Below, piece by piece: positions 1-62,821 of a stretch of 64,000 nt of DNA; the first letter of the stretch is position 1; each line of letters opens with the position of its first letter. The stretch is from Candidatus Nomurabacteria bacterium (GTDB lineage Bacteria; Patescibacteriota; Minisyncoccia; Phycocordibacterales; UBA5272). The position numbers and the translations under genes are program-made. The stretch covers positions 18,830-82,829 of the forward strand of contig JAQBRF010000004.1 of assembly GCA_028286645.1 (NCBI GenBank), read 5' to 3'. Under the pieces are notes generated by a model. The model was not told where the DNA came from. It worked only from the letters and a program-made list of their open reading frames with translations, and did no database searches.

Positions 1-132
1 AAGTTCTACTTCGTTAATTTGAAGGGCGATTTCTTTCTCACCGATTTTCCGTACTAAAAACTTCCCCAAAAGGCTTTTAGCCATTTCTTCGCCCGAATTT
101 AGGAAATACTTTTTTGTTAAAACTTTTCTCAT
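1..132 (-). CDS. DNA-3-methyladenine glycosylase (MPG/AAG family), N-terminal fragment; CDS continues past the window start
   Basis: Minus-strand ATG at 132..130. Translation is MRKVLTKKYFLNSGEEMAKSLLGKFLVRKIGEKEIALQINEVEL. The SLLGKxLVR...IvEvEaY pattern is typical of the MPG family N-terminus. Confidence 0.5.
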   Translation of the reverse strand, partial: MRKVLTKKYFLNSGEEMAKSLLGKFLVRKIGEKEIALQINEVEL

Positions 133-7786: not shown

Positions 7787-7817
7787 AAAACAAACTATTA
7801 GTTTAATTTGTTCTTAT

Positions 7818-7847: not shown

Positions 7848-7868
7848 GTCTAATAGAATTGCGGGCAC

Positions 7869-9248: not shown

Positions 9249-9255
9249 AAAAACC

Positions 9256-9285: not shown

Positions 9286-9365
9286 CTTGTTGCTTATTAT
9301 AGCACATTTTCAGGGTTTTGTGCCGTTGCTCGACCGGCTGACAGCCGAAACTCGTCAAGCAATGT
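9256..9365 (-). ncRNA. Candidate small RNA (~110 nt) delimited by a TTGACA-16-TATACT promoter (9372-9399, minus) and the terminator at 9256-9285
   Basis: Promoter and terminator bracket a region with no ORF. Identity unknown. Confidence 0.3.
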
Positions 9366-9424
9366 ATATCCAGTATAGCAAATCCACAGGATTTGTCAAG
9401 TCCTATAAAAAATCTTTATTTTAA

Positions 9425-9439
9425 TGGGTTTGATATACT
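9425..9439 (+). promoter_or_regulatory. Extended -10 promoter (TGaTATACT) for the HAD-like gene, inside a conserved ~80-bp element shared with 11741-11815
   Basis: tttGATATACT lies 26 nt upstream of ATG 9472. Confidence 0.4.
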
Positions 9440-9471
9440 TCCTTTATGAAATATAATCAGTCTTGTTTCTA

Positions 9472-10014: not shown

Positions 10015-10025
10015 ACCCACTTCCT

Positions 10026-10070
10026 CACATAAAAATTCTTTCGAGGAGAGAGGAGGTTTTTTAATTTTGG
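10026..10070 (+). repeat. R1 repeat copy 2 (more diverged)
   Basis: Seen in sequence. Confidence 0.5.
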
Positions 10071-10162
10071 AAAATATTATAAAACAATTTTCTTGACTTT
10101 TGTTTTAAATATGGTTGAATTATGGAAAGCTTCACTTGTTCAATCTTTTAGAGAGGTCCTGT

Positions 10163-10543
10163 ATGCTCAGCTTAATCAATACGTTTGTCTGGTACGGGCT
10201 CTGCCTATTTCTGGTGGGACTGATCTCTTACACGATCCTGGGCAGGGAGTGGAAAGAAGGAACTTCCGACTGGTCTACTTACGCCTGCCTCATCCCAAGC
10301 TGTGTGGCGCTGGTTGCGTTTATTGTTACCCCGTTTTTCATAGAGATAGGGGTGACACGCTGGCCGGAGTTTGACACGGCAGATGTTCGTCATTTGGCGC
10401 TGTTCTGGTGCACAAATGAACTACCACCCGAGCAGCTCATCTTCGCGTTGGGTGTCATTGGAATGGCCGTAGCGGTGGGAGTGATCTTTACCGCTACCAT
10501 CGCCCGGATTGGCTCCCTCCGATCGAGAGAATGCGGCGACTAG
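10163..10543 (+). CDS. Hypothetical small membrane protein, high-GC cassette
   Basis: SD AGAGAGG 6 nt before the ATG. 3-4 TM. GC about 55-60%. Terminator at 10572-10608. Confidence 0.45.
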   Translation: MLSLINTFVWYGLCLFLVGLISYTILGREWKEGTSDWSTYACLIPSCVALVAFIVTPFFIEIGVTRWPEFDTADVRHLALFWCTNELPPEQLIFALGVIGMAVAVGVIFTATIARIGSLRSRECGD

Positions 10544-10571
10544 GTCGATCAGTGGGTAAGAAAGATCAGGA

Positions 10572-10608
10572 CAGGGCCTGCGACAGAGATGTCGCGGGCC
10601 TATTTTTT
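10572..10608 (+). terminator. Intrinsic terminator (GGGCCTGCGAC..GTCGCGGGCC + T6)
   Basis: Seen in sequence. Confidence 0.5.
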
Positions 10609-10658
10609 ACATAAAAACTCTTTTCGATGAGAGTGGAGAATTTTTTAGCTTTGGATTT
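10604..10658 (+). repeat. R1 repeat copy 3
   Basis: Seen in sequence. Confidence 0.6.
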
Positions 10659-10662
10659 ATAT

Positions 10663-10880
10663 AAAAAAGAAATAGGGACGCGATCTTCCGATCGCGCCCC
10701 ATGGGGGTTTAGTGGTTCTATGCGATAACCCCCTTTATCGGTCCTCAGACACACGTCTGCATCTGCCGTAATGGTCAGTCTCCGTAGACCGTCCGTTCCT
10801 GTCCTAAATTACGGTTAAGGAATTATAGTGAGAATGAGATTTTCGGCCTATATTGCACCGAGACGGAACTCATCCCCAAA
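10663..10880 (-). ncRNA. Candidate small RNA (~210 nt): promoter TTGACA-17-TAATAT (10887-10915, minus) to terminator hairpin 10675-10700 + T-run
   Basis: Only tiny ORFs inside. Promoter and terminator as stated. Confidence 0.25.
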
Positions 10881-10941
10881 GAACAGCTGCATATTTATAT
10901 TAACTCCGGCGGTGGGATTTGTCAATAGGTGCGTATTTTAG

Positions 10942-10970
10942 TAAAAAAAAGACGGCTCGGGTGAGCCGCC
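10942..10970 (-). terminator. Intrinsic terminator for the 11023..11442 gene (8-bp stem + T8)
   Basis: Minus-strand read: GGCGGCTCacccGAGCCGTCtttttttt. Confidence 0.5.
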
Positions 10971-11022
10971 TGGGAAGGGGGAGAAGGGAGAGGGGATTGG
11001 GGAACTAGGGATGTTGGACGAG

Positions 11023-11442
11023 TTACACCCAGAAGTATTTCATCGCGTTAAGCTCGGCGTGGATTTCGCCAGCGTACTTGCAGGCAAGGTCGATGAAATC
11101 TTCGTCGTTCGGAGCGAGGGCGAGCATCTGAGGAAGACCGCATTGGAAAAATGCGACGAGCGCCTCCAATCGGGATCGACGAGCATTGCGCTCACTCTCT
11201 TTTTCCAGATCTTCATCGACGTCCTTGGTCACCTCATCGATGTATTTCTCGTAGGCACTGGCGGCGACCACGAACTCCAGATTCATCTCTGTGCCGAATT
11301 TCATCGCGATGTAAGCGGCTTCCGCGGGAGCCAGGAAGTTGACGAACTGATTCCCGAATTCTTCTCTGAATGCCCTCGCCATCCTTTTCAGCTCTTCTTC
11401 GTTGCGAGGTGCGCCTTTCTCTTCGTATGCTTGGTTAACCAT
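11023..11442 (-). CDS. Hypothetical acidic protein, high-GC cassette
   Basis: SD AAGGAGA before the ATG, a terminator downstream, and GC-rich sequence. Confidence 0.45.
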   Translation of the reverse strand: MVNQAYEEKGAPRNEEELKRMARAFREEFGNQFVNFLAPAEAAYIAMKFGTEMNLEFVVAASAYEKYIDEVTKDVDEDLEKESERNARRSRLEALVAFFQCGLPQMLALAPNDEDFIDLACKYAGEIHAELNAMKYFWV

Positions 11443-11516
11443 ACTCTTCTCCTTGAGGGTTGTGCAATCATTAAAACACTACAATTCTTTTGTGAAAAAG
11501 TCAATCTTCTAACTTA

Positions 11517-11573
11517 TTCACATAAAAACTCTTTTCGAGGAGGGTGGAGAGCTTTTTAGCTTTGGATTTTGGA
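11517..11573 (+). repeat. R1 repeat copy 4
   Basis: Seen in sequence. Confidence 0.6.
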
Positions 11574-11739
11574 AAATAAAAAGGGCGGGACCACTTGGGA
11601 TCCCGCCCGCTTTGCTACGTTCTCTGCGTGAGGTTCGCAGTCATTCGTAAAATGGGTTTAGTTTCACCTGGGGGCCTCAAGCTTTCCCAGTAGATGGCCT
11701 CAAGAGCGGCGGATGTTTCACCCGTCATTGCCCAGCCAT
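11572..11739 (-). ncRNA. Candidate small RNA (~170 nt): promoter TTGACA-16-TATACT (11746-11773, minus) to terminator GGGCGGGA..TCCCGCCC + T-run (11571-11609)
   Basis: No ORF inside. The promoter spacer carries a CATATGCT/AGCATATG palindrome. Confidence 0.3.
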
Positions 11740-11818
11740 ATGCTCAGTATAGCATATGTAAGGAGTTTGTCAAGTAGTACAAAACCTTTATTTTAAAGGG
11801 TTTTGATATACTGCAAAT

Positions 11819-12076
11819 ATGGGAAACTTATACGAAAATGGGAAGGTAAAAATAAATGCACAATCACTCGTTCTAATCATCCAGGCAGTTGACAGCGAAA
11901 TTCAGAGATTGAAGCGCACGCCGACTGACGAAATGGTGCTCGAGGATTATCAATTTTTAGAAGATTATATTAATGTAGCGGAAGAACTAGAAGAGATCTA
12001 TAAAGAAGCACAAAAGGAAGTAATGAATCTTCCTGTTTACGATAGGCTCGTAGATAAAAAACCAAAGAGTGCATAA
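11819..12076 (+). CDS. Hypothetical small acidic protein. Likely leaderless mRNA, since the extended -10 TGATATACT ends 6 nt before the ATG
   Basis: AT-rich gene with the TGaTATACT element at 11804-11812. Confidence 0.4.
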   Translation: MGNLYENGKVKINAQSLVLIIQAVDSEIQRLKRTPTDEMVLEDYQFLEDYINVAEELEEIYKEAQKEVMNLPVYDRLVDKKPKSA

Positions 12077-12466
12077 ATAGCTTTTCACAATGAAATTGGT
12101 ACTTATACTTAAGATATAATTATAAATATATGGAAAATACACAAAGGGGAAATTTTGGTCCAGGAGGACGAGGTGAAGATAAATATAGATTTCCGCCAGA
12201 AGTAAACGAGGGTGGCTTACAAAAACCAGCCATTGATATAGGCGAGGAATTTAGTCATTTAAACGGCATTGTTCCTTAAGGGTTTACGGGAAATAATACG
12301 GAAACAGAGGAAGATCCAGTATCTTCTGATGTGGCATATATTGAAGGACCAGACGAATATAGGAAGAGAGGATCAATGTAATTGACTTCACCCGTTTAAA
12401 CTGGCAGAGTGAAGTGGAATAACCAGAAATAAATATCTGGTTCAATAACATTGCGAGGATAAAGAC

Positions 12467-12874
12467 ATGGAAGCGGGAATTTTTGCAATTATTTCGTTGT
12501 TTACGCTCTTCCGTTTCGGAAGGACGTTAGGGCGAATATATGTCGGGGCGGAGGATTGGCTGGGTGTTCTCACGTGGATTTTCGGAACAGCCTCCTTCGT
12601 GCTTTCAACTCAAAGTCTGATAGTTGTGATATGGGAGCTCCTAGGCAGCTTTTCACCTTTCTACATCGGTGATAAAGGCCTGTTGTACTGCCTTTCTTGG
12701 GGATGGATGGCTCCGTGGAAAGGGCTGGACATTTTCGTGGCCCAGAGTATTATCCTGGGTGCATTAACTATCTCTTGCACGATGCTTTTGGGGGCTATCT
12801 CGTATTACGCTGTACGGGGACTGCCAGTGCGTGAGCCTTTTGTTTCCAAAGATTCCAATTTCGTTGTACGTTGA
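12467..12874 (+). CDS. Hypothetical membrane protein, high-GC cassette
   Basis: SD GAGGA before the ATG. About 4 TM. Confidence 0.4.
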   Translation: MEAGIFAIISLFTLFRFGRTLGRIYVGAEDWLGVLTWIFGTASFVLSTQSLIVVIWELLGSFSPFYIGDKGLLYCLSWGWMAPWKGLDIFVAQSIILGALTISCTMLLGAISYYAVRGLPVREPFVSKDSNFVVR

Positions 12875-13000
12875 TCCGCGGCGCGCAAGCGTTGCGGTTT
12901 TATTATTGATTTGACTTAATTAGATATAGCTGGCAGAGTATGATTGAGCCACTGGCTTTGATTAGCCGGTATTTATGAATCACTTACAGGAGGAAGTTTC

Positions 13001-13396
13001 ATGGATGAGTATGGATGGTTGTGGGGTCTTTCGTTTATGGGCAATTTCTTCATCCTTATCGTGGTTGCGAGAGCGGTATGGGTGAAATCGCAGAAAAGGA
13101 TTGATGTTGGCATAGCCTTTGCCATCGCATCAATTATCGCTTTTGCGGGGATTACGTACTGCGCGGCCTACGTGCTTTTCTGGGCCGGCTACGCACTTAT
13201 GCCGCACGACATCACCAAGGAGATGCTCGAGGCGGTGGCAAATTTCCAGTTCTCGCATCTGACTGGTCGTGACCTTACGATATCGATCGCGCTCGGATTG
13301 ATCGCCCTAGGGATCAGCTTGGCGATCGTGATCTCGGTCATAAGGGGGGCCATAAAACAGCCGTCGAGAATCGGCAAACCAATCAGGGTCACATAG
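13001..13396 (+). CDS. Hypothetical membrane protein, high-GC cassette
   Basis: SD AGGAGGA before the ATG. About 4 TM. Terminator CCGCGGCGAACAAGCCGCGG + T at 13405-13440. Confidence 0.45.
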   Translation: MDEYGWLWGLSFMGNFFILIVVARAVWVKSQKRIDVGIAFAIASIIAFAGITYCAAYVLFWAGYALMPHDITKEMLEAVANFQFSHLTGRDLTISIALGLIALGISLAIVISVIRGAIKQPSRIGKPIRVT

Positions 13397-13623
13397 GTGT
13401 GACGAGGGCCGCGGCGAACAAGCCGCGGATTTTTTATATAAAACAAGCACCGCCCACAATAGACGGCACTTTCGGTTCTTTCATAATTAGTTTACCATTA
13501 ACTTCTTCTTTAATTTGATCGTGTGGATAGATTTTCCCTTATCCTTTGACTCGAAAAATCAGGAGGAGTACGCTTATAAATGAGCAGCACAAACATGTTC
13601 TAGCACTCGGAGGAGTGAGCAAT

Positions 13624-13923
13624 ATGGGAAAGTCGGATAAAACGGCCCTGGCAACAGGTTTGCAGTTTCTCAGCAATGTGAGGGTCATCAACAGGAACTT
13701 CGTAGGTGATCCGCCAAGCCTTCAGCCTGGGAAACCTGGGATTGAATTTTTCCTTGAATTTCTCGCAGCGCGGAAGGTCACCTTCGAAATGTGCGAGATC
13801 ATCCCGGGGAACGGAGGCAGAGAAATCACCATCCGCGCTACGGGCTGCCCGGAGGCGCTCGAGCTCCTGGGTGAAAGCGGCGAAGGACGCCGTCATGATT
13901 GGGCTTTTCGAGTCACGCATTGA
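13624..13923 (+). CDS. Hypothetical protein, high-GC cassette (start moved to the internal Met that carries a GGAGGAG SD)
   Basis: GGAGGAGtgagcaatATG. A strong bidirectional terminator lies at 14003-14047. The overlapping minus-strand ORF 13600..13998 is the alternative. Confidence 0.3.
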   Translation: MGKSDKTALATGLQFLSNVRVINRNFVGDPPSLQPGKPGIEFFLEFLAARKVTFEMCEIIPGNGGREITIRATGCPEALELLGESGEGRRHDWAFRVTH

Positions 13924-14070
13924 GTTCGAAAGCCCGGACAGAAGCTGATATGGCCAGGTCTCTGCAAGCGAAAGCTGCAGAGACCTTTTATTTGACATAA
14001 GAAAAACAAGAGCGTAAATTAAAATAGTACGCTCTTGTTTTTCCTAGAGCCCTAACTCAAGGAGGATATT

Positions 14071-14319
14071 TTGCCTGAAAGCACCTTACCGAAAGTTCCG
14101 AGAAGTGCGCCTGAACATCCCGATGACGTCGAGGTCTCACACGAAGGGGAGTGGATCGCCCTGTTATTTCATCCGAAAATGATTCTTGAGCCGACAAGCT
14201 ACACATTCGAGGTGGACTCATCCTCTAAGCTGCAAGTTTTCGTCGGCGGATGGCTGGTCGTTGAGTTCGAAAGCCGGGAATGGGTAGTATTTCGTACGTC
14301 CAAGCAGGCTGCCGCGTAA
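14071..14319 (+). CDS. Hypothetical protein, high-GC cassette (TTG start after AAGGAGG)
   Basis: SD and spacing. Terminator at 14337-14367. Confidence 0.35.
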   Translation: MPESTLPKVPRSAPEHPDDVEVSHEGEWIALLFHPKMILEPTSYTFEVDSSSKLQVFVGGWLVVEFESREWVVFRTSKQAAA

Positions 14320-14435
14320 TAAGCGGAACTTGTACTCCGTGGCTCCGCAAGGAGCCACGGTTTTTCTTTGACCTAGAAGTTGCTTTGTAGTACAGTTATA
14401 AAGATTTATTGTTCAACTAACCAGAGGAAACTCAA

Positions 14436-14747
14436 GTGGACGACGACATGATGGACCGTTTCGGAATTGTGGACAAGGGAGGTTGGTCAGATGGAGAGGG
14501 GTGCCTGTCAAACCGGGATCCTGAGGCTCATCAATTGATCGAAGTCGGTCAGTGCAGGTTTGAAAAACTGGTCGATAACGTTCCTAAAGAGGAGTGGATA
14601 GCCCTCGATGCTTTCATCCACGAGTGCGGATTCCCGCTTGCGTCGACCAAGGTTCTGATAACCCCTGCTGACCTGAAGGGGCGACTCTATATACGATGCG
14701 GAGAGAAACAGATTTGTCTCATAACAGGCAAATGGCGGTATGCGTAA
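14436..14747 (+). CDS. Hypothetical protein, high-GC cassette
   Basis: Terminator CTGGGAGC..GCTCCCAG + T8 at 14756-14790. Confidence 0.35.
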   Translation: MDDDMMDRFGIVDKGGWSDGEGCLSNRDPEAHQLIEVGQCRFEKLVDNVPKEEWIALDAFIHECGFPLASTKVLITPADLKGRLYIRCGEKQICLITGKWRYA

Positions 14748-14865
14748 TACCACACTGGGAGCAAGGAAAGCTCCCAGGTTTTTTATTTTTATATTGACTG
14801 GACATATTTAAGGCGCTAAAGTTATAAAGATTGGTCTTTTTGCAATGAACCTTTGTGGAGGATTT

Positions 14866-15420
14866 ATGACGAAACCAATTCTTACGATTGTCCCGCAGCT
14901 CGAAGTAAGAAGGGGTGGAGGAGAACCTCCTCCGCTCCTTGATAAACAGCTTCGGGTGGATGAGACTCCGCCAGCGGCGGCTGATCAAGCCGAGGCAGAG
15001 CCTGATTTCCAAGGAAAGGCAACATCAAGCCCTGACGACGTCCAATCCTTGGGCGATGTTTCAGAGGCCAGTGATGCAGAATCGGCTCAGGTTTCTCCCG
15101 GCGAATTGTGGCGAAAAGATCGCGAGGAAGCATGGAGACTTTACCAGGAAAGTAAAGCGCGCATCAGCCTATCGGATCCGATAAAGTCAGGGATTCCAGC
15201 GGAGTCGGTGATCATTTATTGGACTGACTCGGAGCCGCGGACAAAAATGACCGGCGAAGATGTGATCAATGAAAGTCTCGAGCGCGTAGAAGGAGATCGG
15301 TTCGTAGAGATCAGCACTACAGGAGAATCGAAAAAAGGTGTATGCTTCATTTTCACCTATTCTCACCGGTTCCCGTTTTTCAGGTTTTTCGCACCTGAGG
15401 TCTGCGAAATAAAAAAATAA
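14866..15420 (+). CDS. Hypothetical acidic low-complexity protein, high-GC cassette
   Basis: GGAGGAtttATG. Terminator CCGCGGCTGGAGGGCCGCGG + T-run at 15431-15462. Confidence 0.4.
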   Translation: MTKPILTIVPQLEVRRGGGEPPPLLDKQLRVDETPPAAADQAEAEPDFQGKATSSPDDVQSLGDVSEASDAESAQVSPGELWRKDREEAWRLYQESKARISLSDPIKSGIPAESVIIYWTDSEPRTKMTGEDVINESLERVEGDRFVEISTTGESKKGVCFIFTYSHRFPFFRFFAPEVCEIKK

Positions 15421-15554
15421 GACAGAAATTCCGCGGCTGGAGGGCCGCGGTTTTATTTTTTCACATATCCTTTTTTGAATGTTGATGGTTATAGTATATT
15501 AATTAAGTACTGTTCTGTTTTTTCTTAACCGTTTCATTTTTAATAGAAGAGAAA

Positions 15555-15740
15555 ATGTCGGCAATAAAGAGACCTAAGTCCCCAGTTTTTCCTGAGGGAG
15601 ACGTGCTTCATATCGACGGACGGCTCCTCCAAACGCATAATGGACACAAAGCTACGCCTCCCCCAAAAGGAGGGGATGATTTTCCTGCTGTGCGAGTTTC
15701 TCCAAGCGGTCAAAGTGTCTACCGTTTCCGCCCGAAATGA
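15555..15740 (+). CDS. Hypothetical small protein, high-GC cassette
   Basis: Followed by the terminator GTGCGCAGCGCC-tac-GGCGCTGCGCAC + T7 at 15751-15786. Confidence 0.3.
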   Translation: MSAIKRPKSPVFPEGDVLHIDGRLLQTHNGHKATPPPKGGDDFPAVRVSPSGQSVYRFRPK

Positions 15741-15822
15741 AAGAGGCCAAGTGCGCAGCGCCTACGGCGCTGCGCACTTTTTTTAACTCGCCCTTAAATA
15801 CTCATTTGATATACTAACAACT

Positions 15823-18351: not shown

Positions 18352-19521
18352 TTATCTCGTATCTTTAATCGGAAGTACATAGGAAATCCCCCACAAGATG
18401 ACTCCTCCTAATACCAGGAACATCAATTGAGGTCTATCTATTAAAAATGGAGAAATTAAAATTCCAACGGCACCTATAAATATAGTCGCAAATATTCCGG
18501 CATTATTAAATAAGGCATTAAGAGAAGAATCAGTGGACTTTATCTTTTTAAAAAAATATGTGTAAGCCATAGTCTCTACTAAGGCTGCTCCTATTCTTGA
18601 AACTACTAGTATTCCGATCCACACCCTTGGATCATTGCTGGTTATTATTACACACATAAATGCGGTTATAGCCAAGATACAAAGCCCAGTAATCATTATT
18701 TCTTTTTCGCCATATTTAGTATCAGCCAGAACTCCCACTTCATACGGAAGGAGAACAAGCGGGACGAGAGCTAAAGGCAAGATGAAACTAAGGTATGTAG
18801 TAAGCGGAATTCCTAAAGTAACCAAATAAATAGGGGAGTAAATAATCATTACCGCATAAAAAGACTGTACGATAAACATCGCAATTAAGGCGCCTTTTAG
18901 ATTAGTGTTTCTGGAGACTTGCCTAATAGCCCAAAATAAATCAACTGAATGATAAGCGGGCTCTTTAATGTGGCTTAGGTATTTATGTAGGAAATATAAA
19001 AATGGAATTAATGTAAGACTTGTTACGATATACAGAATTTCAAATGATCCTATTTTAAGAAGTGCTCCTCCGATAACGGGTGAAACCAATATCCCCATAT
19101 TTAATATAACTAAAAATAGTCCGCGAATGCTGCCGGTTTCCGCGTGGTGGCTAAAGCTTTCAACAAAAATATTCAAACATACATAAAGAAGAGATTGAAG
19201 TAGAAAATGCACAACAAAGAAAATGCCGATGAAGATGGCGCTGTTAGTCGTGGCCATGGCCAACATCGCAAGCATCTCTAAGATAACTAGTCCGAAAGTA
19301 AATGTGTATGTATGGAAGCGCTTAATATATTTAGAAAAGTAGATCGCCGCTATTAAAGCGACAATGCTTGCCAGCATGTATAACCCATTTACCCATGAAG
19401 AAGCAAAAAACTGATGAAGATATGTTGAAGTGGCATAAAGCGGAATTCCATAATGAAGCGCATAAAGAATCGTCAGCATGTAAGTGACGATAAGGAGTTT
19501 ATTGCGAACTATTGCGTGCAT
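18352..19521 (-). CDS. MFS-type transporter (about 12 TM)
   Basis: Hydropathy only. Confidence 0.45.
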   Translation of the reverse strand: MHAIVRNKLLIVTYMLTILYALHYGIPLYATSTYLHQFFASSWVNGLYMLASIVALIAAIYFSKYIKRFHTYTFTFGLVILEMLAMLAMATTNSAIFIGIFFVVHFLLQSLLYVCLNIFVESFSHHAETGSIRGLFLVILNMGILVSPVIGGALLKIGSFEILYIVTSLTLIPFLYFLHKYLSHIKEPAYHSVDLFWAIRQVSRNTNLKGALIAMFIVQSFYAVMIIYSPIYLVTLGIPLTTYLSFILPLALVPLVLLPYEVGVLADTKYGEKEIMITGLCILAITAFMCVIITSNDPRVWIGILVVSRIGAALVETMAYTYFFKKIKSTDSSLNALFNNAGIFATIFIGAVGILISPFLIDRPQLMFLVLGGVILWGISYVLPIKDTR

Positions 19522-19615
19522 AGGAACAGTTTACAGTTTCCAGTGATCAGTTTCCAGGGAAAAAGAAAACCCGCCTCACGACGAGTAATCTTTTATTACT
19601 CGCCGCCGGGCGGGG

Positions 19616-19888
19616 CTATCTGCAGGAAGGGGCATCTTGTTCCTGGAGGTAGTATTTGTACAGAGGGGATCGCCGATCGCCGACGTAATACTCTTGCACT
19701 TGATATGTTTCTGCAGCTTCACCTTTTCGCATGGGGCGGGTCACCGCCGTCAGCCCGTTGTTGCCCCTCAGCGATGCGGATACCACCTTCTGGCATGCCT
19801 CGATCTTGTACGGTTCGGGTCGCGGTTGTGCGGAAACGTCCGCGCCAAAACCCAAGGAAAGAAGCAATGCCACCGTATAGACTTTCAT
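19616..19888 (-). CDS. Small secreted protein (signal peptide), high-GC
   Basis: SD AAGGAGG before the ATG. Signal peptide MKVYTVALLLSLGFGADVSA. Driven by the palindromic consensus promoter at 19945-19980. Confidence 0.5.
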   Translation of the reverse strand: MKVYTVALLLSLGFGADVSAQPRPEPYKIEACQKVVSASLRGNNGLTAVTRPMRKGEAAETYQVQEYYVGDRRSPLYKYYLQEQDAPSCR

Positions 19889-19944
19889 AGGACCTCCTTA
19901 AAATTGTGCGGTTGTCTCCTCCTCAAATAAGGAGAAGAAATACA

Positions 19945-19980
19945 AATGCCAGTATATCATATATACCAGCATTTGTCAAT
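19945..19980 (-). promoter_or_regulatory. sigma70 consensus promoter TTGACA-17-TATACT with an inverted-repeat spacer (copy a of the promoter cassette)
   Basis: Minus-strand read: TTGACAaatgctggtatatatgaTATACT. Confidence 0.55.
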
Positions 19981-20106
19981 AAGGCCGATTCAAAAAAGCT
20001 TACTTAGATAAGTTTTTTTGTTTTACAATCTTTTACACGCCACACGCCACACGCCACATCTACACACTAATAATTACTGATCTCTTCGCGGTGATTATGG
20101 GTAAGA

Positions 20107-20904
20107 CTAATATATAAAATCTTTTATCCATTCTTTTATTTCCTCAACGGTAAATTTCTTTTCTCTATCATTTGTTTTTACTATGTATGTCTTATCCCAT
20201 TTGATGTTGGCGAGCTCTCCTTTGTAGTTTTCAATATCTACGTAACTTTCTCCTTCTACTCCATTAAGCGTTTCAATGGCATGCATGAGGCTGGGGACAG
20301 AACTGATTCCCCTGTCTTTCTTTTTTTCTTTAATAATTTCATCAGTAAGCGGTCCTCTTGGTTTCTTTTCAAAAGGTTTAAATGTAAAGCCTTGAGTCTT
20401 TATATTTGTATATGAAATTCTTATAAGTGGATTGGGCTCTCTTTTAAGATCTGATGGATGCAGAGCTTTAGTATAAAGGTACATCATTTCTTTGGCAGTT
20501 TCTTTACCAGAAAATTCACACTTATATGCTGGGAAAATCTTTCTGGTAATAAGAGATAGCTCTGGATCTTCGACTTTATATGTTTGGCTGATATCGGAAG
20601 AAACAGCAACTAATGTATCAAAGGCATATCCTTTTGATTTGAACCCAGAAATAACGACGTAGTCCTTAAGGCTTGCGATTTCTTCTTCGTGATTAAGTGC
20701 AAAGAGCAGACAGTCGCGCACCAGATTTTCATCAAAAAAATCGCGCGCAGATATCTGAAAGACAAAGCCGCCTTTGCTTAAAGCATCAGCCTTAAAAAGC
20801 TTGCTTGAAGGTTTGTAATAGAAAGCATTAGGCACATCCTTAAACGCCTCTATGTCTGCATTCGGATAAAGCGACGTAAGTTTGCTTTTTAAATTTATGC
20901 TCAT
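20107..20904 (-). CDS. Hypothetical protein, likely co-transcribed with RNase J
   Basis: A 3-nt gap separates it from the upstream rnj stop. No recognisable motif. Confidence 0.4.
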   Translation of the reverse strand: MSINLKSKLTSLYPNADIEAFKDVPNAFYYKPSSKLFKADALSKGGFVFQISARDFFDENLVRDCLLFALNHEEEIASLKDYVVISGFKSKGYAFDTLVAVSSDISQTYKVEDPELSLITRKIFPAYKCEFSGKETAKEMMYLYTKALHPSDLKREPNPLIRISYTNIKTQGFTFKPFEKKPRGPLTDEIIKEKKKDRGISSVPSLMHAIETLNGVEGESYVDIENYKGELANIKWDKTYIVKTNDREKKFTVEEIKEWIKDFIY

Positions 20905-29639: not shown

Positions 29640-32600
29640 ATGAAAAAAGGTATTAAAAAATGTGGAGCAAAAGTTTGGGTTATTTTTTTTACATTTATTT
29701 TAATTTCATCTTTTTCTGCTAATAGCTCAGTTCATGCAGCCGAAAGCAAAATTCTCAATTTCCCGGTCTATCCATTACAAAGTGTAATAAGATTTATTTC
29801 ATTTAAAACATTTTCTTTGTATTCTGTTTCATCGCATGCATATGCCCTAGCTCATAACCTGCCACAATTTGCGCCAACGAAACTTTCAGCCATACCATCG
29901 ATTAAAACTGACGAGTTATCGCCTCTTTTAAATATAGGAAATAGTGCCAGCCAAAATACTGTCATATTATCAGATGCTGTCAATGAGCTTGGCTGCGAGT
30001 TAGTTAAATTTATTAGGATTAATTTATGCGCAGGTGAGAGTAACTTTGTGACGCCGAAATTAGCGATGAATAAAGTAGATAATAATGATTTAGTTATCGA
30101 TTCTGCTATTCCACGGCAAATTGCTATAGTAGGAGAAGAACTTCATTCGCCGCTTATTGAGTCAATAAAAAACTTTGCTTTAAATTTAAATACTGCAACT
30201 GTGCCAAAGCAGCAACCTTATGAAGAAATCCAAAATGATATTCCAGATCTCAAATTTAACTTTCCGCGCTTAGCAGAGTTTAGCCTTCTTCCTTTTAAGC
30301 AATATTCATCATTTGCAACAGGAGATAATAAAGCAAGCGCTCAAGGAATTTCGGTTCCAGTGAAGAAGAGTACACTGCCATTTTTAGACAGATTATCACT
30401 TTCTGTTTTCTGTAAAATAAAATCTTTATCAGGAGTCGTTGATGAAAACAGATGCAGTTATGATTCGCTTGCGGGAAACTTTTTAATAAACAATTTAGCA
30501 AATTTAAATGATGGCAATACTCAGCCATCAACACTAAATAGTAGTGGGGCCACTTCAACCTCAACAGGCTCCTCTAACACTCCTCAAGACACTTTTACAA
30601 ACTCTGGAAATATTTCAAAACCGGTTTATATAACTCAGTATCTCACTAAGTATATTACTCTTGCGGGTTCTCCGGGTCCTAAAGGTCCTTCTGGTGTAGA
30701 TGGAAAAGATGGCCTAGATGGAATGAGTGGTCAGAATGGAGCTAACTCACAAGGAGGATTCGGAGGATTTATTAATCCATCAAGTTCTTATGTTGCGCCG
30801 ACTCCGTATGTGGCGCAAAGCCTTGTGGGGATTTCTACTATTGGATATTTGCGTGATACTACGATTGAGTATGCGAAGTTTAATTATGGTACAGCTAATA
30901 ATCTAAGCCTGATAAGCCCTACTGTAGATAACGGCGTGTTTAACGGAACGAATATATTTAATGGAGGCGTACGATTTAATGATAATGTAGACATAAACAT
31001 CCTAACTGCCACCTCGAGTAATTTCCTAAATTCAAGCACGACAAATTCGTTTGCAAATAATTTTTCTGCAGTAAATTCTATACTTGGGGATGCAATCATA
31101 ACAAATGCGAATGTAACTAATTCGACTACGACAAATCAGTCTACAACTAATTTAAATCTTACAAACGGTACTACAAGTAATCAATTTATTAATAATCTTG
31201 CGGTAATTAATTCCACAACGACAAATGCGAGCACCACAAATAGCTACATAAGTAATTTATTAAATGATAATAGTACCACTACCAACTTGGTAGTTACAAA
31301 TGCAAGCACAACGAATGCGACTACTACGAATTCTTTTATTTCTAAATTATGGTCCACTCTTGCTAACATTACTGATCTAATAATTGGCAATGCCACAACA
31401 ACTAATCTATTTGCTGCGAATGCGACTTCCACCAACTTCTTTTCAACTCTTGCCCGCATCACGGGTCTCACAGTAGATAATTCAGTTACAACTAATGCAA
31501 CGACTACAAATGGCTACATATCTAATTTAACTAATGATAATGGAAATATCGGAAATCTTGTCGTAACTAATGCAAGCACAACTAATGGCACCACGACAAA
31601 TAGTTACATAGCAAATTTAGCAAATACAAACGCGGTGATTACCAATGCTACGACCACAAATTCTTTCATTGCACGATTGTGGTCCACTTTAGGCGATATA
31701 ACAGGATTAAATACAGTTAATTTGACCGCTACGAATGCTACTAGTACAAATTTCTTTTCAACCCTTGCCCGCATCACGGGTCTTACTGTCGATAATTCCG
31801 TTACGACTAATGCAACCACAACAAATAGTTTTATTGCAAATCTGACTGCAGATAATGCTGTAATTAACAATATCAATTTTGGCAGCGCTTCATCTACAAA
31901 CTCGACGTCGACAAATGGTTTTATTGCAAACCTAACGATGAATAACGGAACATCAACGAACTTCTTTACTCAAAACCTTTCCGTTGGAAATACAAATGTT
32001 AGCGGCAATCAAACAATTAATGGTACGTTCACTGTTTTAGGTACTACCACACTCGGAGCAGCAACGACAATTGTGGGGAATATACTCTTGGGGACAAGTA
32101 CCTCGAATTTTATAACAGTAAATGGCCTATTTAATTCTCATCTGGTTCCCGCGCAAAATATTACATACGATCTGGGTTCCCCATCATTTTATTATAGGAC
32201 TTTATATGTTGATACCATTACCGCAAATACCGTTTCTGCTGTTAGCTCTACGATCAATGGAACAACAAATAGTTCATTTTCAATAAACGCAGATAATGTT
32301 TCCGCAGACGCAGAAGATTCTACCCTTGTCTTTTTTAGAGGATTAGTTACTCCGAATGCAGTTATTAGGTGGAATTCCATTTCGAAGAGATTGGAGGCGA
32401 ATATGTCTATTAATGTTATGAATGAAACTCCTGTAACCGGTTCCACCACTTTTTCAGTACAGGGAGGGGCTGGTCAGGGAACAACACCGTTATTTAAGCT
32501 GCTAGATAATTCTGAGAACACTCTTTCATACTTTGACCAAAATGGCTCATTAGGAATTGGGACTAGTACGATCACCTCAGGGGCGAAGGTGGATGTATGG

Positions 32601-57731: not shown

Positions 57732-57812
57732 TTGCAGAAGCGGGAGTCAAGGAAATAAAAAGCCGCCCCTCGTCCGAAGAAAAGGTTTGGCTTTTCTCAG
57801 AACGAAGAGCGG

Positions 57813-58157
57813 TTACCAACTGTAATGGGAAGGGTCGTTGCTCACCGGAATTTCGTGCGCAGGATCGAAACCCCACTTCCTTACTTCGTAATCCCGGAGG
57901 AGAACGAAGTACTTGAGTGAAGGTTTCCCGTCCGGCTCGCAGTGCGCCGGCGATGAGCAGATGATGGTCGAAGGTATAAAACCTGCTTTCCGCCAGATCG
58001 GATCGTATGCCTTCGGCATGAGGTATAGTGGTTCATTGCGATGAACCCACCATTCCACCATGTCTTTTCCGACGCTGTAAGTGCAGCCGCCGATCATGGC
58101 AAGCAGGAAAGCACCCGCTGCCCAACCTTTCAAGTTATCAATCATTTCGCGATTCAC
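57813..58157 (-). CDS. Hypothetical membrane-anchored protein, high-GC, GTG start after GAAGGAGG
   Basis: Driven by promoter cassette copy b (58192-58228). Confidence 0.45.
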   Translation of the reverse strand: MNREMIDNLKGWAAGAFLLAMIGGCTYSVGKDMVEWWVHRNEPLYLMPKAYDPIWRKAGFIPSTIICSSPAHCEPDGKPSLKYFVLLRDYEVRKWGFDPAHEIPVSNDPSHYSW

Positions 58158-58191: not shown

Positions 58192-58228
58192 CAATTACTA
58201 ATATATCATATATACTGGTAATTGTCAA
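58192..58228 (-). promoter_or_regulatory. sigma70 promoter TTGACA-17-TATATT with a palindromic spacer (promoter cassette copy b)
   Basis: Minus-strand read: TTGACAattaccagtatatatgaTATATT. Confidence 0.5.
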
Positions 58229-58232: not shown

Positions 58233-58253
58233 TTGCTCCGCGGTAGGGGTATC
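58233..58253 (-). repeat. tRNA 3'-end-like fragment (TTGCTCCGCGGTAGGGGTATC), att-like remnant
   Basis: Similar to the tRNA-Asn 3' end TTGCTCCGTGGGTAGGGATCG. Confidence 0.4.
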
Positions 58254-61348: not shown

Positions 61349-61414
61349 ATTCAGAACTCTGAATTGGAGGAATATAAAAATTGAAATGAAACAATTGAGT
61401 TTTGTATAAAAAAG
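61349..61414 (-). repeat. R2 repeat copy B
   Basis: Seen in sequence. Confidence 0.5.
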
Positions 61415-61628
61415 AAAACCCGCTGGCTAGGCGGGGTGGAGATAGGCGCGAAGCCTTCTCACGCGGGGACGTATTCCATTTTGGAGCGCCCCGTGTAGTA
61501 CTGCGTGTTATTTCTGTGGTCGTTGCAGACCTCGTAGAGCGCGATGTGACACGGTAGCCACCCTGAACAATGCTTGTGCTCATTTTTTGCCACCAGTAAC
61601 TTTGCATAGTTAGCTCCTCAGAATATGA
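61408..61628 (-). ncRNA. Short high-GC transcript unit: palindromic consensus promoter (61626-61665) to terminator CCCGCctagccaGCGGG + T-run. Either an sRNA or a small Cys protein
   Basis: SD GAGGAG + ATG at 61607, but the ATG frame is R/S/T-rich and runs through the terminator. An alternative frame gives HKHCSGWLPCHIALYEVCNDH. Confidence 0.3.
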
Positions 61629-61665
61629 CAAATACCAGTATATCATATATACTGGTATTTGTCAA
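61626..61665 (-). promoter_or_regulatory. Perfect 39-bp palindrome containing TTGACA-17-TATACT on the minus strand and aTGACA-17-TATACT on the plus strand (promoter cassette copy c)
   Basis: TGACAAATACCAGTATAT-cat-ATATACTGGTATTTGTCA. Confidence 0.55.
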
Positions 61666-61801
61666 TATGTGGCTCCCTATAGTAAGTAAGTTCAGAACTT
61701 TAAATTGGGTACAAGTTGAGAAAGAGCTGAGGTGCTTGAGCCTAGTAGAAACCATCTTCTCCATTGTATAAAAACAGGAAGTGGCCAATAAATAAAGAAA
61801 T

Positions 61802-62307: not shown

Positions 62308-62329
62308 GCTCAAAAAAGTGCTCCGTGGG
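62308..62329 (-). repeat. Duplicate of the tRNA-Asn 3' end (GTGCTCCGTGGGTAGGGATCGG), about 150 bp from the intact gene
   Basis: 20/21 identical to 62474-62494. Confidence 0.55.
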
Positions 62330-62424
62330 TAGGGATCGGTCACAAAACTACTCGCTTTGCTCGAGAAAGTTTCGCGACCCCGTATTCGATCCCTAACGCA
62401 AGCAAAGCAGTTTGCTTGCTCCTT

Positions 62425-62475: not shown

Positions 62476-62821
62476 CTCCGTGGGTAGGGATCGAACCTAC
62501 GACCAATTCCTTACATTTATCCTAAAGTTTCCTAAAGGGATGGACTATATCATCACCCGTATTTTTACAAATCGAGGGTGCAAGGCGCTTCGGACCAGTT
62601 TTATCTGGCACTACTCCTTTCGGATAGTCTCTACACCTTCCCCCCACTAATTTTGTTTTAAATATTTAAAACAAAATTAGTGGGGGGCTTGGCTCGGTAT
62701 TACCCTCCATCGGTTAGATGGGGAGGGCTTCACCGAATTCACCTTGTTTTTCAATTCACCTTACGATGAAAAGCTGCGTTTATTGCCACAGGGAACTGCT
62801 CTACCGCTGAGCTACCACGGA
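62476..62821 (-). tRNA. tRNA-Asn (anticodon GUU) interrupted in the anticodon loop by a group I intron. Exons 62821..62788 and 62513..62476
   Basis: 5' exon UCCGUGGUAGCUCAGCGGUAGAGCAGUUCCCUGU. 3' exon UAAGGAAUUGGUCGUAGGUUCGAUCCCUACCCACGGAG. Spliced loop is CU-GUU-AA. Acceptor 7/7, D, anticodon (G.U) and T stems all pair. Discriminator is G. Confidence 0.7.
62514..62787 (-). ncRNA. Group I self-splicing intron (274 nt) within tRNA-Asn
   Basis: It follows a U and ends in G. IGS GCAG pairs with exon CUGU including a terminal G.U. P7-forming R element GAGACUA and S element GAUAUAGUC are present. Confidence 0.6.

What the first reader, a model, noticed from the sequence alone, without database searches (positions are those of the whole stretch)
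19945..19980. Near-identical palindromic consensus promoter cassette (TTGACA-17-TATACT) reused in front of unrelated high-GC small genes
Three loci (19945-19980, 58192-58228, 61626-61665) share a ~35-bp element. On the minus strand it reads TTGACA-aat(a/g)c(c/t)(a/g)gtatatatga-TATACT, a textbook sigma70 promoter. Its spacer contains CCAGTATAT-N3-ATATACTGG inverted repeats, an ideal dimeric-repressor operator. Copy c is a perfect 39-bp palindrome and so also presents aTGACA-17-TATACT on the plus strand, which could make it bidirectional. Each copy sits in front of a high-GC gene or transcript (19616-19888, 57813-58157, 61408-61628). It therefore behaves like a portable promoter/operator module associated with acquired cassettes.
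Basis: seen in the sequence. Interest (0 to 1): 0.6.

Follow-up and report, generated by a model that had tools for sequence, protein, structure and literature searches.

The report
Palindromic promoter heading acquired mini-genes
Three nearly identical strong-promoter sequences, each folded into a palindrome, sit in front of three small, foreign-looking genes in an uncultivated "Candidatus Nomurabacteria" genome; the palindrome looks less like a repressor site than like a relative of the terminator hairpin behind a neighbouring tRNA gene, so this is an interesting but modest variant of known self-contained "add-on" gene cassettes.

Summary
There are exactly three copies (19942-19979, 58192-58228, 61626-61665), all on the minus strand. 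Each reads TTGACA-17-TGnTATA(C/T)T inside a 33-39 bp hairpin-capable palindrome. Each is followed by a Shine-Dalgarno (SD) site, a GC-rich small ORF and an intrinsic terminator.

The genome is a Candidatus Nomurabacteria MAG (Candidate Phyla Radiation, CPR). Near-consensus promoters are not general here: 9 of 11 lie in 16 kb of apparently lineage-specific DNA.

Cassette a, with a 265-aa gene, is absent from the conserved rnj-MFS junction of about 30 relatives. ORF b belongs to a small family that travels with its terminator into different contexts.

Copies b and c sit in an island beside an intron-containing tRNA-Asn. They lie directly after tRNA-3'-end-like repeats, where the real tRNA carries its terminator hairpin. 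They share that hairpin's outer arms (TTGA(C)AAATACCAG...CTGGTATTT(G)TCAA).

Differences between copies preserve the symmetry. No regulator lies nearby, and the element is absent from relatives. I therefore favour a hairpin-derived promoter/insulator module on moron-like cassettes over a repressor operator. Nothing is shown by transcript data. I rate it a new variant of a known kind, of moderate interest.

The parts
19942..19979 (-). Copy a. -35 TTGACA at 19979-19974, 17-bp spacer, TGA-TATACT with -10 at 19956-19951. Hairpin arms span 19942-19976 (16 pairs, including 2 G.T on the minus strand).
19616..19899 (-). SD AAGGAGG (19899-19893) and ORF a. The ORF is 90 aa with an N-terminal signal-peptide-like segment (MKVYTVALLLSLGFGADVSA/Q). 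GC is 0.55 and GC1/2/3 is 0.60/0.44/0.60.
   Evidence: No homologue in the word-indexed search. No Pfam, PHROG or NCBIfam hit at a credible level. The NCBI record instead annotates the opposite strand.
19560..19615 (-). Intrinsic terminator of cassette a: CCCCGCC...GCGGGTTTTCTTTTT with a nested hairpin. Its ends match the terminator of cassette c.
20107..20904 (-). 265-aa ORF of unknown function, translationally coupled to rnjA. Together with cassette a it fills the rnj-MFS gap and has no counterpart in relatives.
58192..58228 (-). Copy b. -35 at 58228-58223, -10 TATATT at 58205-58200, TG present. It is the weakest palindrome (15 positions, 1 mismatch plus 1 G.T).
58233..58250 (-). Degenerate copy of the tRNA 3' end (CCCCTACCGCGGAGCAA), five bases upstream of copy b's -35.
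57813..58157 (-). ORF b, 114 aa, GTG start after GGAGG. It has an N-terminal membrane helix or lipobox-like IGGC and belongs to a small conserved family of about 110 aa.
57757..57816 (-). Long intrinsic terminator of cassette b, homologous to the terminators behind ORF b relatives in L207, L208, L210, L211 and L212.
61626..61665 (-). Copy c. -35 at 61665-61660, -10 TATACT at 61642-61637, TG present. It is an 18+3+18 palindrome (61626-61664). The plus strand reads ATGACA-17-TATACT (61625-61653).
61459..61619 (-). SD GAGGAG (61619-61614), an ATG at 61607 and the GC3-supported 44-aa frame (61593-61459). The two frames meet at an A6 run (61583-61588). The product would be about 50 aa and Cys/His-rich.
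61408..61435 (-). Intrinsic terminator of cassette c (CCCGCCTAGCCAGCGGG plus a T run).
61666..61708 (-). Repeat ending in GGGAGCCA directly upstream of copy c. Other copies lie at 61325-61367 and 60733-60775, so cassette c and the next cassette are bracketed by direct repeats.
   Evidence: (D12, D13)
62476..62821 (-). tRNA-Asn(GUU) interrupted by a group I intron (about 62514-62787) at anticodon position 35/36. This is the anchor of the island.
   Evidence: described class in PMC13011429
62433..62473 (-). Terminator hairpin of the tRNA: AATTGAAAATACCAGAGA-ttctt-TCTCTGGTATTTTCAATT, RNA -30.7 kcal/mol. Its outer arms are shared with copies c and b, and it occupies the same position after GGAGC.
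62319..62338 (-). Exact 20-nt duplicate of the tRNA 3' end, an att-like scar. A further degenerate copy lies at 60585-60604.
   Evidence: (D14)

Best explanation
The three elements are paralogous copies of one strong housekeeping-sigma (sigma-70-type, extended -10) promoter. Each heads a self-contained, horizontally acquired mini-gene cassette: promoter, short leader with an SD site, GC-rich small ORF and intrinsic terminator. These cassettes resemble phage morons but sit in a Candidatus Nomurabacteria (CPR) chromosome.

The palindrome around the promoter is most likely a nucleic-acid hairpin rather than a protein operator. It is related to the terminator hairpin that follows the neighbouring tRNA-Asn gene. 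In copies b and c it sits immediately after tRNA-3'-end-like (att-like) repeats. I infer that cassettes accreted at the tRNA 3' end carry a junction module of tRNA 3' end plus hairpin. The hairpin would stop or insulate transcription arriving from upstream (the reconstituted tRNA or the previous cassette). Its AT-rich interior has become a consensus promoter that drives the cargo. Copy a is the same module moved to a second insertion site.

Shown by sequence: the repeat, the promoter match, SD/ORF/terminator anatomy, insertion of cassette a, mobility of ORF b plus its terminator, and the shared arms and register with the tRNA hairpin.

Inferred: promoter activity, hairpin function and the integration mechanism.

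Rough sub-confidences: promoter 0.8; acquired cassettes 0.8; common ancestry with the tRNA hairpin 0.6; dual terminator/insulator role 0.3.
For: Promoter:
- The -35 matches 6 of 6, the spacer is 17 bp, TGn is present and the -10 matches 5 of 6 in all three copies, always on the gene strand.
- SD plus start codon lie 20-56 nt downstream, and GC3 periodicity supports the minus-strand ORFs.
- The same 20-nt core recurs in 97 independent metagenomic promoters.

Not a genome-wide consensus:
- 9 of 11 sites matching at least 11 of 12 positions lie in 16.2 kb of lineage-specific DNA, against 2 in 47.8 kb. Fisher p=1.4e-4.
- Strict TTGACA-16..18-TATA[ACT]T sites number 26 in 1.41 Mb of window, its own Logan contigs and relatives together; the window contributes 7 by my count. 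Only a, b and c are sequence-specific palindromes; two further hits in relatives are low-complexity AT runs.

Acquired cassettes:
- About 30 relatives have SBP-rnj-MFS-rlu with a gap of 100-250 bp between rnj and MFS. The window has 1.39 kb there, holding p265 and cassette a.
- The ORF b family has 13 representatives, the best at 61% identity. It occurs in five other contexts with a homologous terminator.
- The cargo GC3 is 0.60-0.71, against 0.32-0.37 for native genes.

Hairpin relationship:
- After GGAGC the real tRNA has AAA-TTGAAAATACCAGAGA..TCTCTGGTATTTTCAA. Copies c and b have CACATA/AAGATA-TTGACAA(A/T)TACCAG..CTGGTA(T/A)TTG.
- GGAGC-N3-8-TTGA[AC]A occurs 4 times, all on the minus strand inside the island and nowhere else in the window.
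- CTGGTATTT occurs almost only in these two hairpins.

Symmetry-preserving variation:
- A C:G pair is inserted relative to the tRNA hairpin.
- There is a G:C swap in copy a and a T:A swap in copy b.
- Folds are far better than shuffles for a and c, with z of -4.8 to -7.0.

Integration hot spot:
- There is an exact 20-nt duplicate of the tRNA 3' end, plus degenerate copies.
- A relative (L167) has a large serine recombinase next to the orthologous tRNA.
Against: - There are no transcript data, so promoter activity and start sites are predictions.
- Hairpins b and c lack a U tract. Hairpin b is weak (-10 kcal/mol, z=-2.4). Only copy a was flagged as terminator-like.
- Copy a has no tRNA-like sequence upstream.
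- Copy c is preceded by a different repeat that ends in GGAGCCA, not by a clear tRNA-Asn 3' end.
- Similarity to the tRNA hairpin covers only the outer 13-14 nt of each arm.
- No recombinase is present in the window.
- The lineage-specific status of 57.3-62.5 kb is inferred from repeats and composition, not from an empty site in a relative.
- With three copies, symmetric changes could also come from template-switch correction of palindromes, without any selected function.
- The strand asymmetry of G.T pairs is not consistent: copy a favours the minus strand and copy b the plus strand.
Confidence: 0.5

Rival explanations
1. Promoter plus operator. The inverted repeat CCAGTATAT-N3-ATATACTGG, or the longer ACAAATACCAG arms, is bound by a dimeric repressor. 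That repressor would co-regulate the three cassettes as a small regulon.
For: The repeat overlaps the spacer, the -10 and the start site, which is the classic place for a repressor. Every copy keeps at least one perfect CCAGTATAT half-site. Other cassette promoters in the window carry their own different short inverted repeats: p9399 has CAAATCC/GGATTTG and p11773 has CATATGCT/AGCATATG.
Against: - No HTH or other DNA-binding domain was found in any ORF scanned across the window.
- The element is absent from 185,579 species genomes (exact pattern), from 1.3 Mb of close relatives and from IMG/VR apart from one unrelated hairpin.
- The symmetric region is 33-39 bp, long for one dimer.
- Differences between copies are mirrored on both arms, which is not what half-sites for one protein predict.
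- The arms are shared with a tRNA terminator hairpin that has no promoter.
Confidence: 0.2
2. Recombination or transposition site. The palindrome would be the binding site of a site-specific recombinase (an att-type site of a serine or tyrosine integrase), or the inverted ends of a tiny MITE-like element that carries an outward promoter. The promoter match would be secondary.
For: - Copies b and c abut att-like repeats at a fixed 6-nt distance (GGAGC-N6-TTGAC).
- The length of about 39 bp, the inverted symmetry and the asymmetric centre resemble serine-integrase att sites (my own knowledge, not tested).
- A large serine recombinase sits beside the orthologous tRNA in L167.
- Cassette c is bracketed by 43-nt direct repeats.
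Against: - No recombinase or transposase is present in the window.
- No target-site duplication is visible around the palindromes.
- Crossover at a central dinucleotide would give hybrid arms. It would not give conserved outer arms with a replaced interior.
- The interior is exactly what a promoter needs, in the right orientation and at the right distance from SD and start codon in all three copies.
- No integron attC signatures (R''/R') are present.
Confidence: 0.12
3. Nothing special. Three independent strong promoters resemble each other because all approach the same consensus in an AT-rich genome, and the palindromy is a by-product of alternating TA sequence.
For: - The 20-nt core TTGACA-N7-GTATATATGATATA occurs in more than 120 metagenomic stretches from unrelated organisms.
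- TATATA-type sequence is self-complementary.
- Other cassettes in the window have similar TTGACAA-16/17-TGnTATACT promoters.
Against: - The non-consensus flanks (AAT[A/G]C[C/T][A/G]G and their mirror) are shared and symmetric in a, b and c (5-7 of 7). In 97 control promoters with the same core they usually match 1-3 of 7.
- Homology continues into the leader up to the SD site in a and c, and into GGAGCMA upstream in b and c.
- nhmmer E-values for the three copies are 5e-12 to 7e-10, with nothing else significant.
Confidence: 0.05
4. A symmetric bidirectional promoter. The palindrome would exist to fire transcription in both directions.
For: Copy c offers ATGACA-17-TATACT on the plus strand. 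Pseudo-symmetric bidirectional promoters are common in bacteria (PMC10268837, PMC12825309).
Against: - Only copy c has a -35-like hexamer on the plus strand, and the plus-strand -10 has no TG.
- The two predicted start sites are about 30 bp apart. The usual arrangement is 18 bp with shared -7/-11 positions.
- Nothing coding follows on the plus strand at any copy.
Confidence: 0.08

Closest known systems
Phage 'morons': independent transcription units inserted between conserved genes (PMC3594210, seen)
   Same: Each cassette has its own promoter, a single small ORF, its own factor-independent terminator and a base composition unlike its neighbours. Cassette a is inserted between genes that are adjacent in relatives. 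ORF b plus its terminator is found in several unrelated contexts.
   Different: The cassettes are not in a prophage. No phage genes occur nearby, no PHROG hit reaches a credible level, and no match was found in INPHARED or IMG/VR. Three unrelated cargos share one promoter module. The host is a CPR bacterium.
Extended -10 sigma-70/sigma-A promoters
   Same: TTGACA, a 17-bp spacer and TGnTATA(C/T)T. The core is identical to many metagenomic promoters.
   Different: The promoter is embedded in a long symmetric palindrome whose arms include the -35 hexamer and its mirror image downstream of the start site.
tRNA-targeted genomic islands with duplication of the tRNA 3' end (att repeats), in tandem arrays
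   Same: There is an exact 20-nt duplicate of the tRNA-Asn 3' end plus several degenerate copies downstream of the gene. The DNA between them is foreign in composition. A relative has a recombinase at the same tRNA.
   Different: The units are tiny (0.13-2.3 kb), mostly single promoter-gene-terminator cassettes. No integrase is present. Part of the tRNA's terminator hairpin is repeated as well and carries a promoter.
Integron gene cassettes and attC arrays
   Same: Arrays of single-gene units separated by repeats that can form hairpins.
   Different: These cassettes carry their own promoters and terminators. The repeats lack the R''/R' attC signature. No IntI integrase is present. Integration appears tied to a tRNA 3' end.
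Pseudo-symmetric bidirectional promoters (Warman et al. 2021 as cited in PMC10268837)
   Same: Sequence symmetry around the -10 region, with a possible second orientation at copy c.
   Different: The symmetry extends over 39 bp and includes the -35. The predicted start sites are about 30 bp apart, not 18 bp. Two of the three copies have no plus-strand -35.
Small palindromic repeats that create promoters, such as Neisseria Correia elements (from memory, not tested)
   Same: A short inverted-repeat element reused at several loci that supplies promoter hexamers.
   Different: There are only three copies, no target duplication and no known transposase. The element is fused to a leader and an SD site.

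Membership tests
sigma-70-type extended -10 promoter | -35 hexamer close to TTGACA, with a 16-18 bp spacer | tested here: met
   TTGACA with a 17-bp spacer in all three copies.
sigma-70-type extended -10 promoter | -10 hexamer close to TATAAT, preceded by TGn | tested here: met
   TGATATACT in a and c; TGATATATT in b.
sigma-70-type extended -10 promoter | Transcription starts 6-9 nt downstream of the -10 | not testable with these tools
   No transcript data are available. An SD site and start codon lie 20-56 nt downstream, which is consistent.
Operator of a dimeric repressor | Inverted repeat overlapping the core promoter | tested here: met
   The arms span the spacer, the -10 and the start site.
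Operator of a dimeric repressor | Cognate DNA-binding regulator encoded nearby or co-occurring | tested here: not met
   No HTH or other regulator domain was found in the ORFs of the window that were scanned.
Operator of a dimeric repressor | Site conserved in front of orthologous or regulon genes in related genomes | tested here: not met
   0 hits in genome contigs. 0 hits in 1.3 Mb of relatives.
Operator of a dimeric repressor | Half-sites converge on one consensus, so variation is not mirrored between arms | tested here: inconclusive
   Two of five variable pairs change on both arms in a complementary way. This argues against the model, but there are only three copies.
Moron-like autonomous cassette | Own promoter and own intrinsic terminator around one ORF | tested here: met
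   Predicted by sequence for a, b and c.
Moron-like autonomous cassette | Base composition differs from the flanking genes | tested here: met
   GC 0.52-0.55 and GC3 0.60-0.71, against GC 0.36-0.41 and GC3 0.32-0.37 in flanking genes.
Moron-like autonomous cassette | Inserted between genes that are adjacent in relatives | tested here: met
   Met for cassette a: rnj and MFS are adjacent in about 30 relatives. Not testable for b and c, because no syntenic relatives could be fetched.
Moron-like autonomous cassette | Located in a phage or prophage genome | tested here: not met
   No phage genes are nearby. PHROGs gave one weak, sub-threshold hit (ORF a, E=0.0025), and INPHARED and IMG/VR gave nothing.
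Integron cassette / attC | attC with an R''(RYYYAAC)...R'(GTTRRRY) imperfect palindrome, promoterless cassettes and IntI nearby | tested here: not met
   The palindrome ends are TTGACAA/TTGTCAA. The cassettes have promoters. No integrase is in the window (sequence reading; Pfam).
Intrinsic terminator | Stable stem-loop followed by a U tract | tested here: inconclusive
   The tRNA hairpin folds at -30.7 kcal/mol and is followed by CGUUUCU. Copy a was flagged by the scan. Copies b and c have no U tract, and b is weak.
tRNA-3'-end integration island | Direct repeats of the tRNA 3' end bracketing foreign DNA | tested here: met
   An exact 20-nt repeat at 62319-62338, plus degenerate copies at 60585 and 58233.
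tRNA-3'-end integration island | Integrase or recombinase gene at one end | tested here: not met
   None in the window. One is present at the orthologous tRNA in relative L167.
Bidirectional (pseudo-symmetric) promoter | Divergent start sites, usually 18 bp apart, sharing -7/-11 positions | tested here: not met
   The predicted starts are about 30 bp apart. Only copy c has a plus-strand -35.

The most novel reading that the evidence does not exclude
CPR bacteria of this lineage may possess an integrase-in-trans gene-capture platform at the 3' end of tRNA-Asn. Small GC-rich ORF-plus-terminator cassettes would be inserted one after another. Each would bring, or be joined to, a dual-purpose palindrome that terminates the reconstituted tRNA or the preceding unit and also carries a consensus promoter for the cargo. 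That would be a promoter-equipped, tRNA-anchored analogue of an integron array, whose junction module can also seed insertions elsewhere (copy a).
Probability: 0.12. Interest if true: 0.7.

Novelty: new variant of a known kind. Interest (0 to 1): 0.4.

Why it matters
CPR/Patescibacteria have tiny genomes and almost no studied gene regulation. If the reading is right, it gives three things:
- A concrete, testable strong promoter for this group.
- A case where lineage-specific small secreted or membrane proteins, likely surface or host-interaction factors, arrive as insulated plug-in units with a shared expression module.
- A case where a terminator hairpin and a promoter are the same piece of DNA next to a tRNA integration hot spot.

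It also flags that current annotation misses or mis-strands these mini-genes. The limits are clear: there are three copies in one metagenome-assembled genome, and no expression data.

Tried and rejected
- **Metagenome scan too loose.** The scan with TTGACA-N7-GTATATATGATATA returned only generic promoters without the symmetric flanks.
- **Exact degenerate motif in 185,579 species genomes:** 0 hits.
- **Palindrome in IMG/VR:** one unrelated AT-rich terminator hairpin.
- **INPHARED by DNA and protein, IMG/VR by protein, for ORF a, ORF b and the 212-aa ORF:** nothing.
- **Word-indexed homology search for ORF a and ORF b:** nothing. The exhaustive search then found a family for ORF b.
- **ORF b fold:** a confident model but no structural match. 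afdb50 was unavailable.
- **SDR-gene relatives, fetched to find an empty site for the b/c island:** not syntenic.
- **Closer relative L213:** a different variable region and no element.
- **Extending beyond the window:** only about 6.8 kb of ordinary genes on the right side. The left side failed.
- **G.T wobble strand asymmetry as evidence for an RNA hairpin:** not consistent between copies.
- **Structured ncRNA instead of genes:** rejected because of the SD sites, the GC3 periodicity and the ORF b family.
- **ARAGORN's His(GUG) call for the tRNA:** rejected in favour of Asn(GUU), after comparison with an intron-less orthologue.
Full report
**1. The observation**

The three loci are real. The inverted-repeat motif CCAGTATATNNNATATACTGG, with up to 3 mismatches, occurs three times against 0.02 expected. 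The promoter-wide pattern occurs three times against 0.00 expected. All three copies lie on the minus strand:

| Copy | Promoter reading | -35 coordinates |
|---|---|---|
| a | TTGACA-17-TGA-TATACT | 19979-19974 |
| b | TTGACA-17-TGA-TATATT | 58228-58223 |
| c | TTGACA-17-TGA-TATACT | 61665-61660 |

Copy c is an 18+3+18 palindrome (61626-61664). It also offers ATGACA-17-TATACT on the plus strand, without TG. A profile of the three copies finds nothing else significant in the window or in about 1.4 Mb of related genomes.

**2. Context**

The window is part of a 514-kb contig of a Candidatus Nomurabacteria MAG in the Candidate Phyla Radiation. It carries ordinary core genes: UvrC, ribonucleotide reductase, DnaE and RNase J.

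Each element is followed by an SD site and a start codon 20-56 nt downstream of the -10 box. A GC-rich ORF and an intrinsic terminator come next.

| Cassette | ORF | GC1/GC2/GC3 |
|---|---|---|
| a | 90 aa, signal-peptide-like N terminus | 0.60/0.44/0.60 |
| b | 114 aa, N-terminal membrane helix | 0.53/0.43/0.61 |
| c | 44-aa frame | 0.49/0.40/0.71 |

This codon-position GC pattern supports coding on the minus strand. Native genes have GC3 of 0.32-0.37. For c, the 101-aa ORF is not the coding frame. An SD-preceded ATG at 61607 joins the 44-aa frame only through an A6 run.

The public annotation misses these ORFs, and at cassette a it calls the opposite strand. No Pfam or NCBIfam family matches any of the three, and PHROGs gave only one weak, sub-threshold hit for ORF a.

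ORF a has no detectable homologue. ORF b was missed by the word-indexed search but has a small family in the exhaustive search: 13 representatives, up to 61% identity, all about 110 aa. Its model is confident (pLDDT 87.5) and has no known fold.

**3. Is it just the organism's promoter consensus?**

Partly. Other cassette promoters in the window read TTGACAA-16/17-TGnTATACT. The central 20 specified bases recur in at least 97 distinct metagenomic promoters, and 71 of those have T at the last -10 position.

Two results show the family is more than consensus:

- The control promoters lack the symmetric flanks. They usually match 1-3 of 7 positions, against 5, 6 and 7 of 7 for a, b and c.
- Near-consensus promoters are not general in this genome. 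Of 11 sites matching at least 11 of 12 positions, 9 lie in 16.2 kb of apparently lineage-specific DNA. Two lie in the other 47.8 kb, and one of those is the tRNA promoter. Fisher p=1.4e-4.

Strict-consensus sites are rare overall: 26 in 1.41 Mb of window, its own Logan contigs and relatives together, of which the window contributes 7 by my count.

**4. Acquired cassettes**

In about 30 related genomes the order SBP-rnj-MFS-rlu-(cupin)-Ddl-like is conserved, with only 100-250 bp between rnj and MFS. In the window that gap is 1.39 kb and holds a 265-aa ORF plus cassette a.

The 6.1-15.8 kb stretch between RNR-beta and the Ddl-like gene is likewise expanded. It is filled with GC-rich ORFan mini-genes that relatives lack.

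Relatives of ORF b occur in five other contexts: next to prs, Mur ligase/TP_methylase, an exonuclease and others. Each time the long terminator is homologous, so ORF plus terminator moves as a unit. Those copies have strong TTGACA-17-TGn promoters but not this palindrome. One of them (L210) has a TTGACAAAC/GTTTTGTCA inverted repeat.

Anatomically these units match the definition of phage morons (PMC3594210). No phage link was found.

**5. The tRNA connection**

Copies b and c lie in a 5-kb island downstream of a tRNA on the minus strand (62476-62821).

Default ARAGORN misses this tRNA, because it carries a group I intron. With introns allowed, ARAGORN calls it His. An intron-less orthologue in relative L167 shows the anticodon loop CTGTTAA, which is Asn(GUU). 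The intron sits at position 35/36, with U before the 5' splice site and G as the last intron base. This is exactly the class recently described in Patescibacteria (PMC13011429).

The last 20 nt of the tRNA are repeated exactly at 62319-62338. Degenerate copies lie at 60585-60604 and 58233-58250, with variants at 60028 and 58778. These are the usual scars of integration at a tRNA 3' end. In L167 a large serine recombinase sits next to the orthologous tRNA. No recombinase is present in the window.

When the sequences are put in register at GGAGC, the end of the tRNA, the relationship appears:

| Sequence | After GGAGC |
|---|---|
| Genuine tRNA | AAA-TTGAAAATACCAGAGA-ttctt-TCTCTGGTATTTTCAA (terminator hairpin, -30.7 kcal/mol) |
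| Copy c | CACATA-TTGACAAATACCAG-TATATATGATATA-CTGGTATTTGTCA |
| Copy b | AAGATA-TTGACAATTACCAG... |

The palindromic promoter therefore occupies the position of the tRNA's terminator hairpin and shares its outer arms. The interior is replaced by the AT-rich stretch that supplies the TGn and the -10.

GGAGC-N3-8-TTGA[AC]A occurs four times in the window. All four are on the minus strand inside the island. The fourth is the promoter of the 60136-60579 cassette. Cassette c and its neighbour are also bracketed by 43-83 nt direct repeats ending in GGGAGCCA.

**6. Hairpin or operator?**

Differences among the paralogues keep the symmetry:

- A C:G pair is inserted relative to the tRNA hairpin.
- Copy a has AAATGC/GCATTT where copy c has AAATAC/GTATTT.
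- Copy b has AATTAC/GTAATT.
- The remaining one-sided changes are mostly G.T.

Mirrored changes are expected for a base-paired structure, or for template-switch correction of a palindrome. They are not expected for two half-sites that must fit one protein.

No regulator domain was found in any scanned ORF of the window. The element is absent from relatives and from 185,579 species genomes.

Against a simple terminator role, b and c lack a U tract and b folds weakly. Copy a is not next to any tRNA-like sequence. G.T strand asymmetry does not settle which strand would fold.

**7. Conclusion**

The most likely account is a reused expression and junction module: hairpin-derived palindrome, consensus extended -10 promoter, short leader and SD site. 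It heads moron-like, horizontally acquired mini-gene cassettes. Two of them were accreted at a tRNA-Asn integration hot spot and one sits at a second site.

| Claim | Status | Rough confidence |
|---|---|---|
| Promoter function | Predicted from sequence | 0.8 |
| Acquisition of the cassettes | Shown for a, strongly suggested for b | 0.8 |
| Relationship to the tRNA terminator hairpin | Shown at sequence level over 13-14 nt arms | 0.6 |
| Insulating or terminating role | Inference | 0.3 |

The repressor-operator reading remains possible (about 0.2). A recombination-site reading is less likely (about 0.12).

This is a new variant of known things (morons, tRNA islands, extended -10 promoters) in a poorly studied phylum. 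Interest is moderate.

Noticed in passing
window 62476-62821 (-), intron about 62514-62787: tRNA-Asn(GUU) split by a group I intron at anticodon position 35/36. Default ARAGORN misses it, and with introns allowed it is miscalled His(GUG). It matches the class recently reported for Patescibacteria (PMC13011429). An HNH-type ORF (62895-63239, +) lies next to it.
   Followed up: yes
window 62640-62687: A perfect 48-bp palindrome (CCCCCCACTAATTTTGTTTTAAATATTTAAAACAAAATTAGTGGGGGG) inside the group I intron. An independent Logan assembly of the same sample breaks exactly here.
   Followed up: partly
window 62319-62338, 60585-60604, 58233-58250, 60028-60047, 58778-58797: An exact 20-nt duplicate and several degenerate copies of the tRNA 3' end downstream of the gene, suggesting repeated integration. 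Relative L167 (2468-4270) has a large serine recombinase beside the orthologous tRNA.
   Followed up: partly
window 62339-62422 and 58253-58380 (also about 59945-59985): A repeated unit that starts with GGAGCA, then a 9-bp hairpin with loop CTGC. The two copies differ by compensatory changes (GCAAGCAAA/TTTGCTTGC against GCACGTGAA/TTCACATGC). GTTAGGGATCGAA follows, and the unit ends in a tRNA-3'-end-like sequence. Its function is unknown.
   Followed up: partly
window 60739-60821, 61331-61413, 61666-61708: An ~85-nt repeat placed right after cassette terminators. It contains the small hairpin TTCAGA(A/G)(C/T)TCTGAA and ends in GGGAGCCA, so it brackets single cassettes much as a spacer or attachment repeat would.
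   Followed up: partly
window 6129-15822: A 9.7-kb block between RNR-beta and the Ddl-like gene, where relatives have 0.7-4 kb. It is filled with GC-rich ORFan mini-genes that have very strong terminators (up to 14-bp GC stems). None has a counterpart in 80 related loci.
   Followed up: partly
window 9255-9399 (-) and 11583-11773 (-): Two consensus extended -10 promoters (TTGACA-16-TGCTATACT) with similar upstream sequence. Each drives a GC-rich transcript of about 120 or 170 nt that ends in a strong terminator and has no SD site or ORF. These are candidate small RNAs with no Rfam match.
   Followed up: no
window 19453-19890 (+) against 19616-19888 (-): The public annotation (JWN37_420) calls a 145-aa ORF on the plus strand. 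The SD site, the signal peptide and codon-position GC favour the 90-aa minus-strand ORF. ORFs b and c are not annotated at all.
   Followed up: yes
window 61583-61607: In ORF c, the SD-preceded ATG (61607) is out of frame with the GC3-supported frame. An A6 run (61583-61588) would join them by a -1 shift. The cause could be slippage, an assembly error or a GTG start at 61593.
   Followed up: partly
window 20037-20062: A short tandem repeat (CACACGC-like, cacgccacacgccacacgccaca) between the 265-aa ORF and promoter a.
   Followed up: no
window 29640-41894 (+): A 4084-aa ORF with many GNVGIGTTTP-type and TN(A/S)TTTN repeats, probably a giant surface protein.
   Followed up: no
window 6947-7016, 10020-10041, 10603-10671, 11513-11582: Another intergenic repeat family (CACATAAAAAYTCTTTTCGAGGAGGGTGGAGAG...TTTTTAGCTTTGGATTT), lying just downstream of terminators in the variable block.
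   Followed up: no
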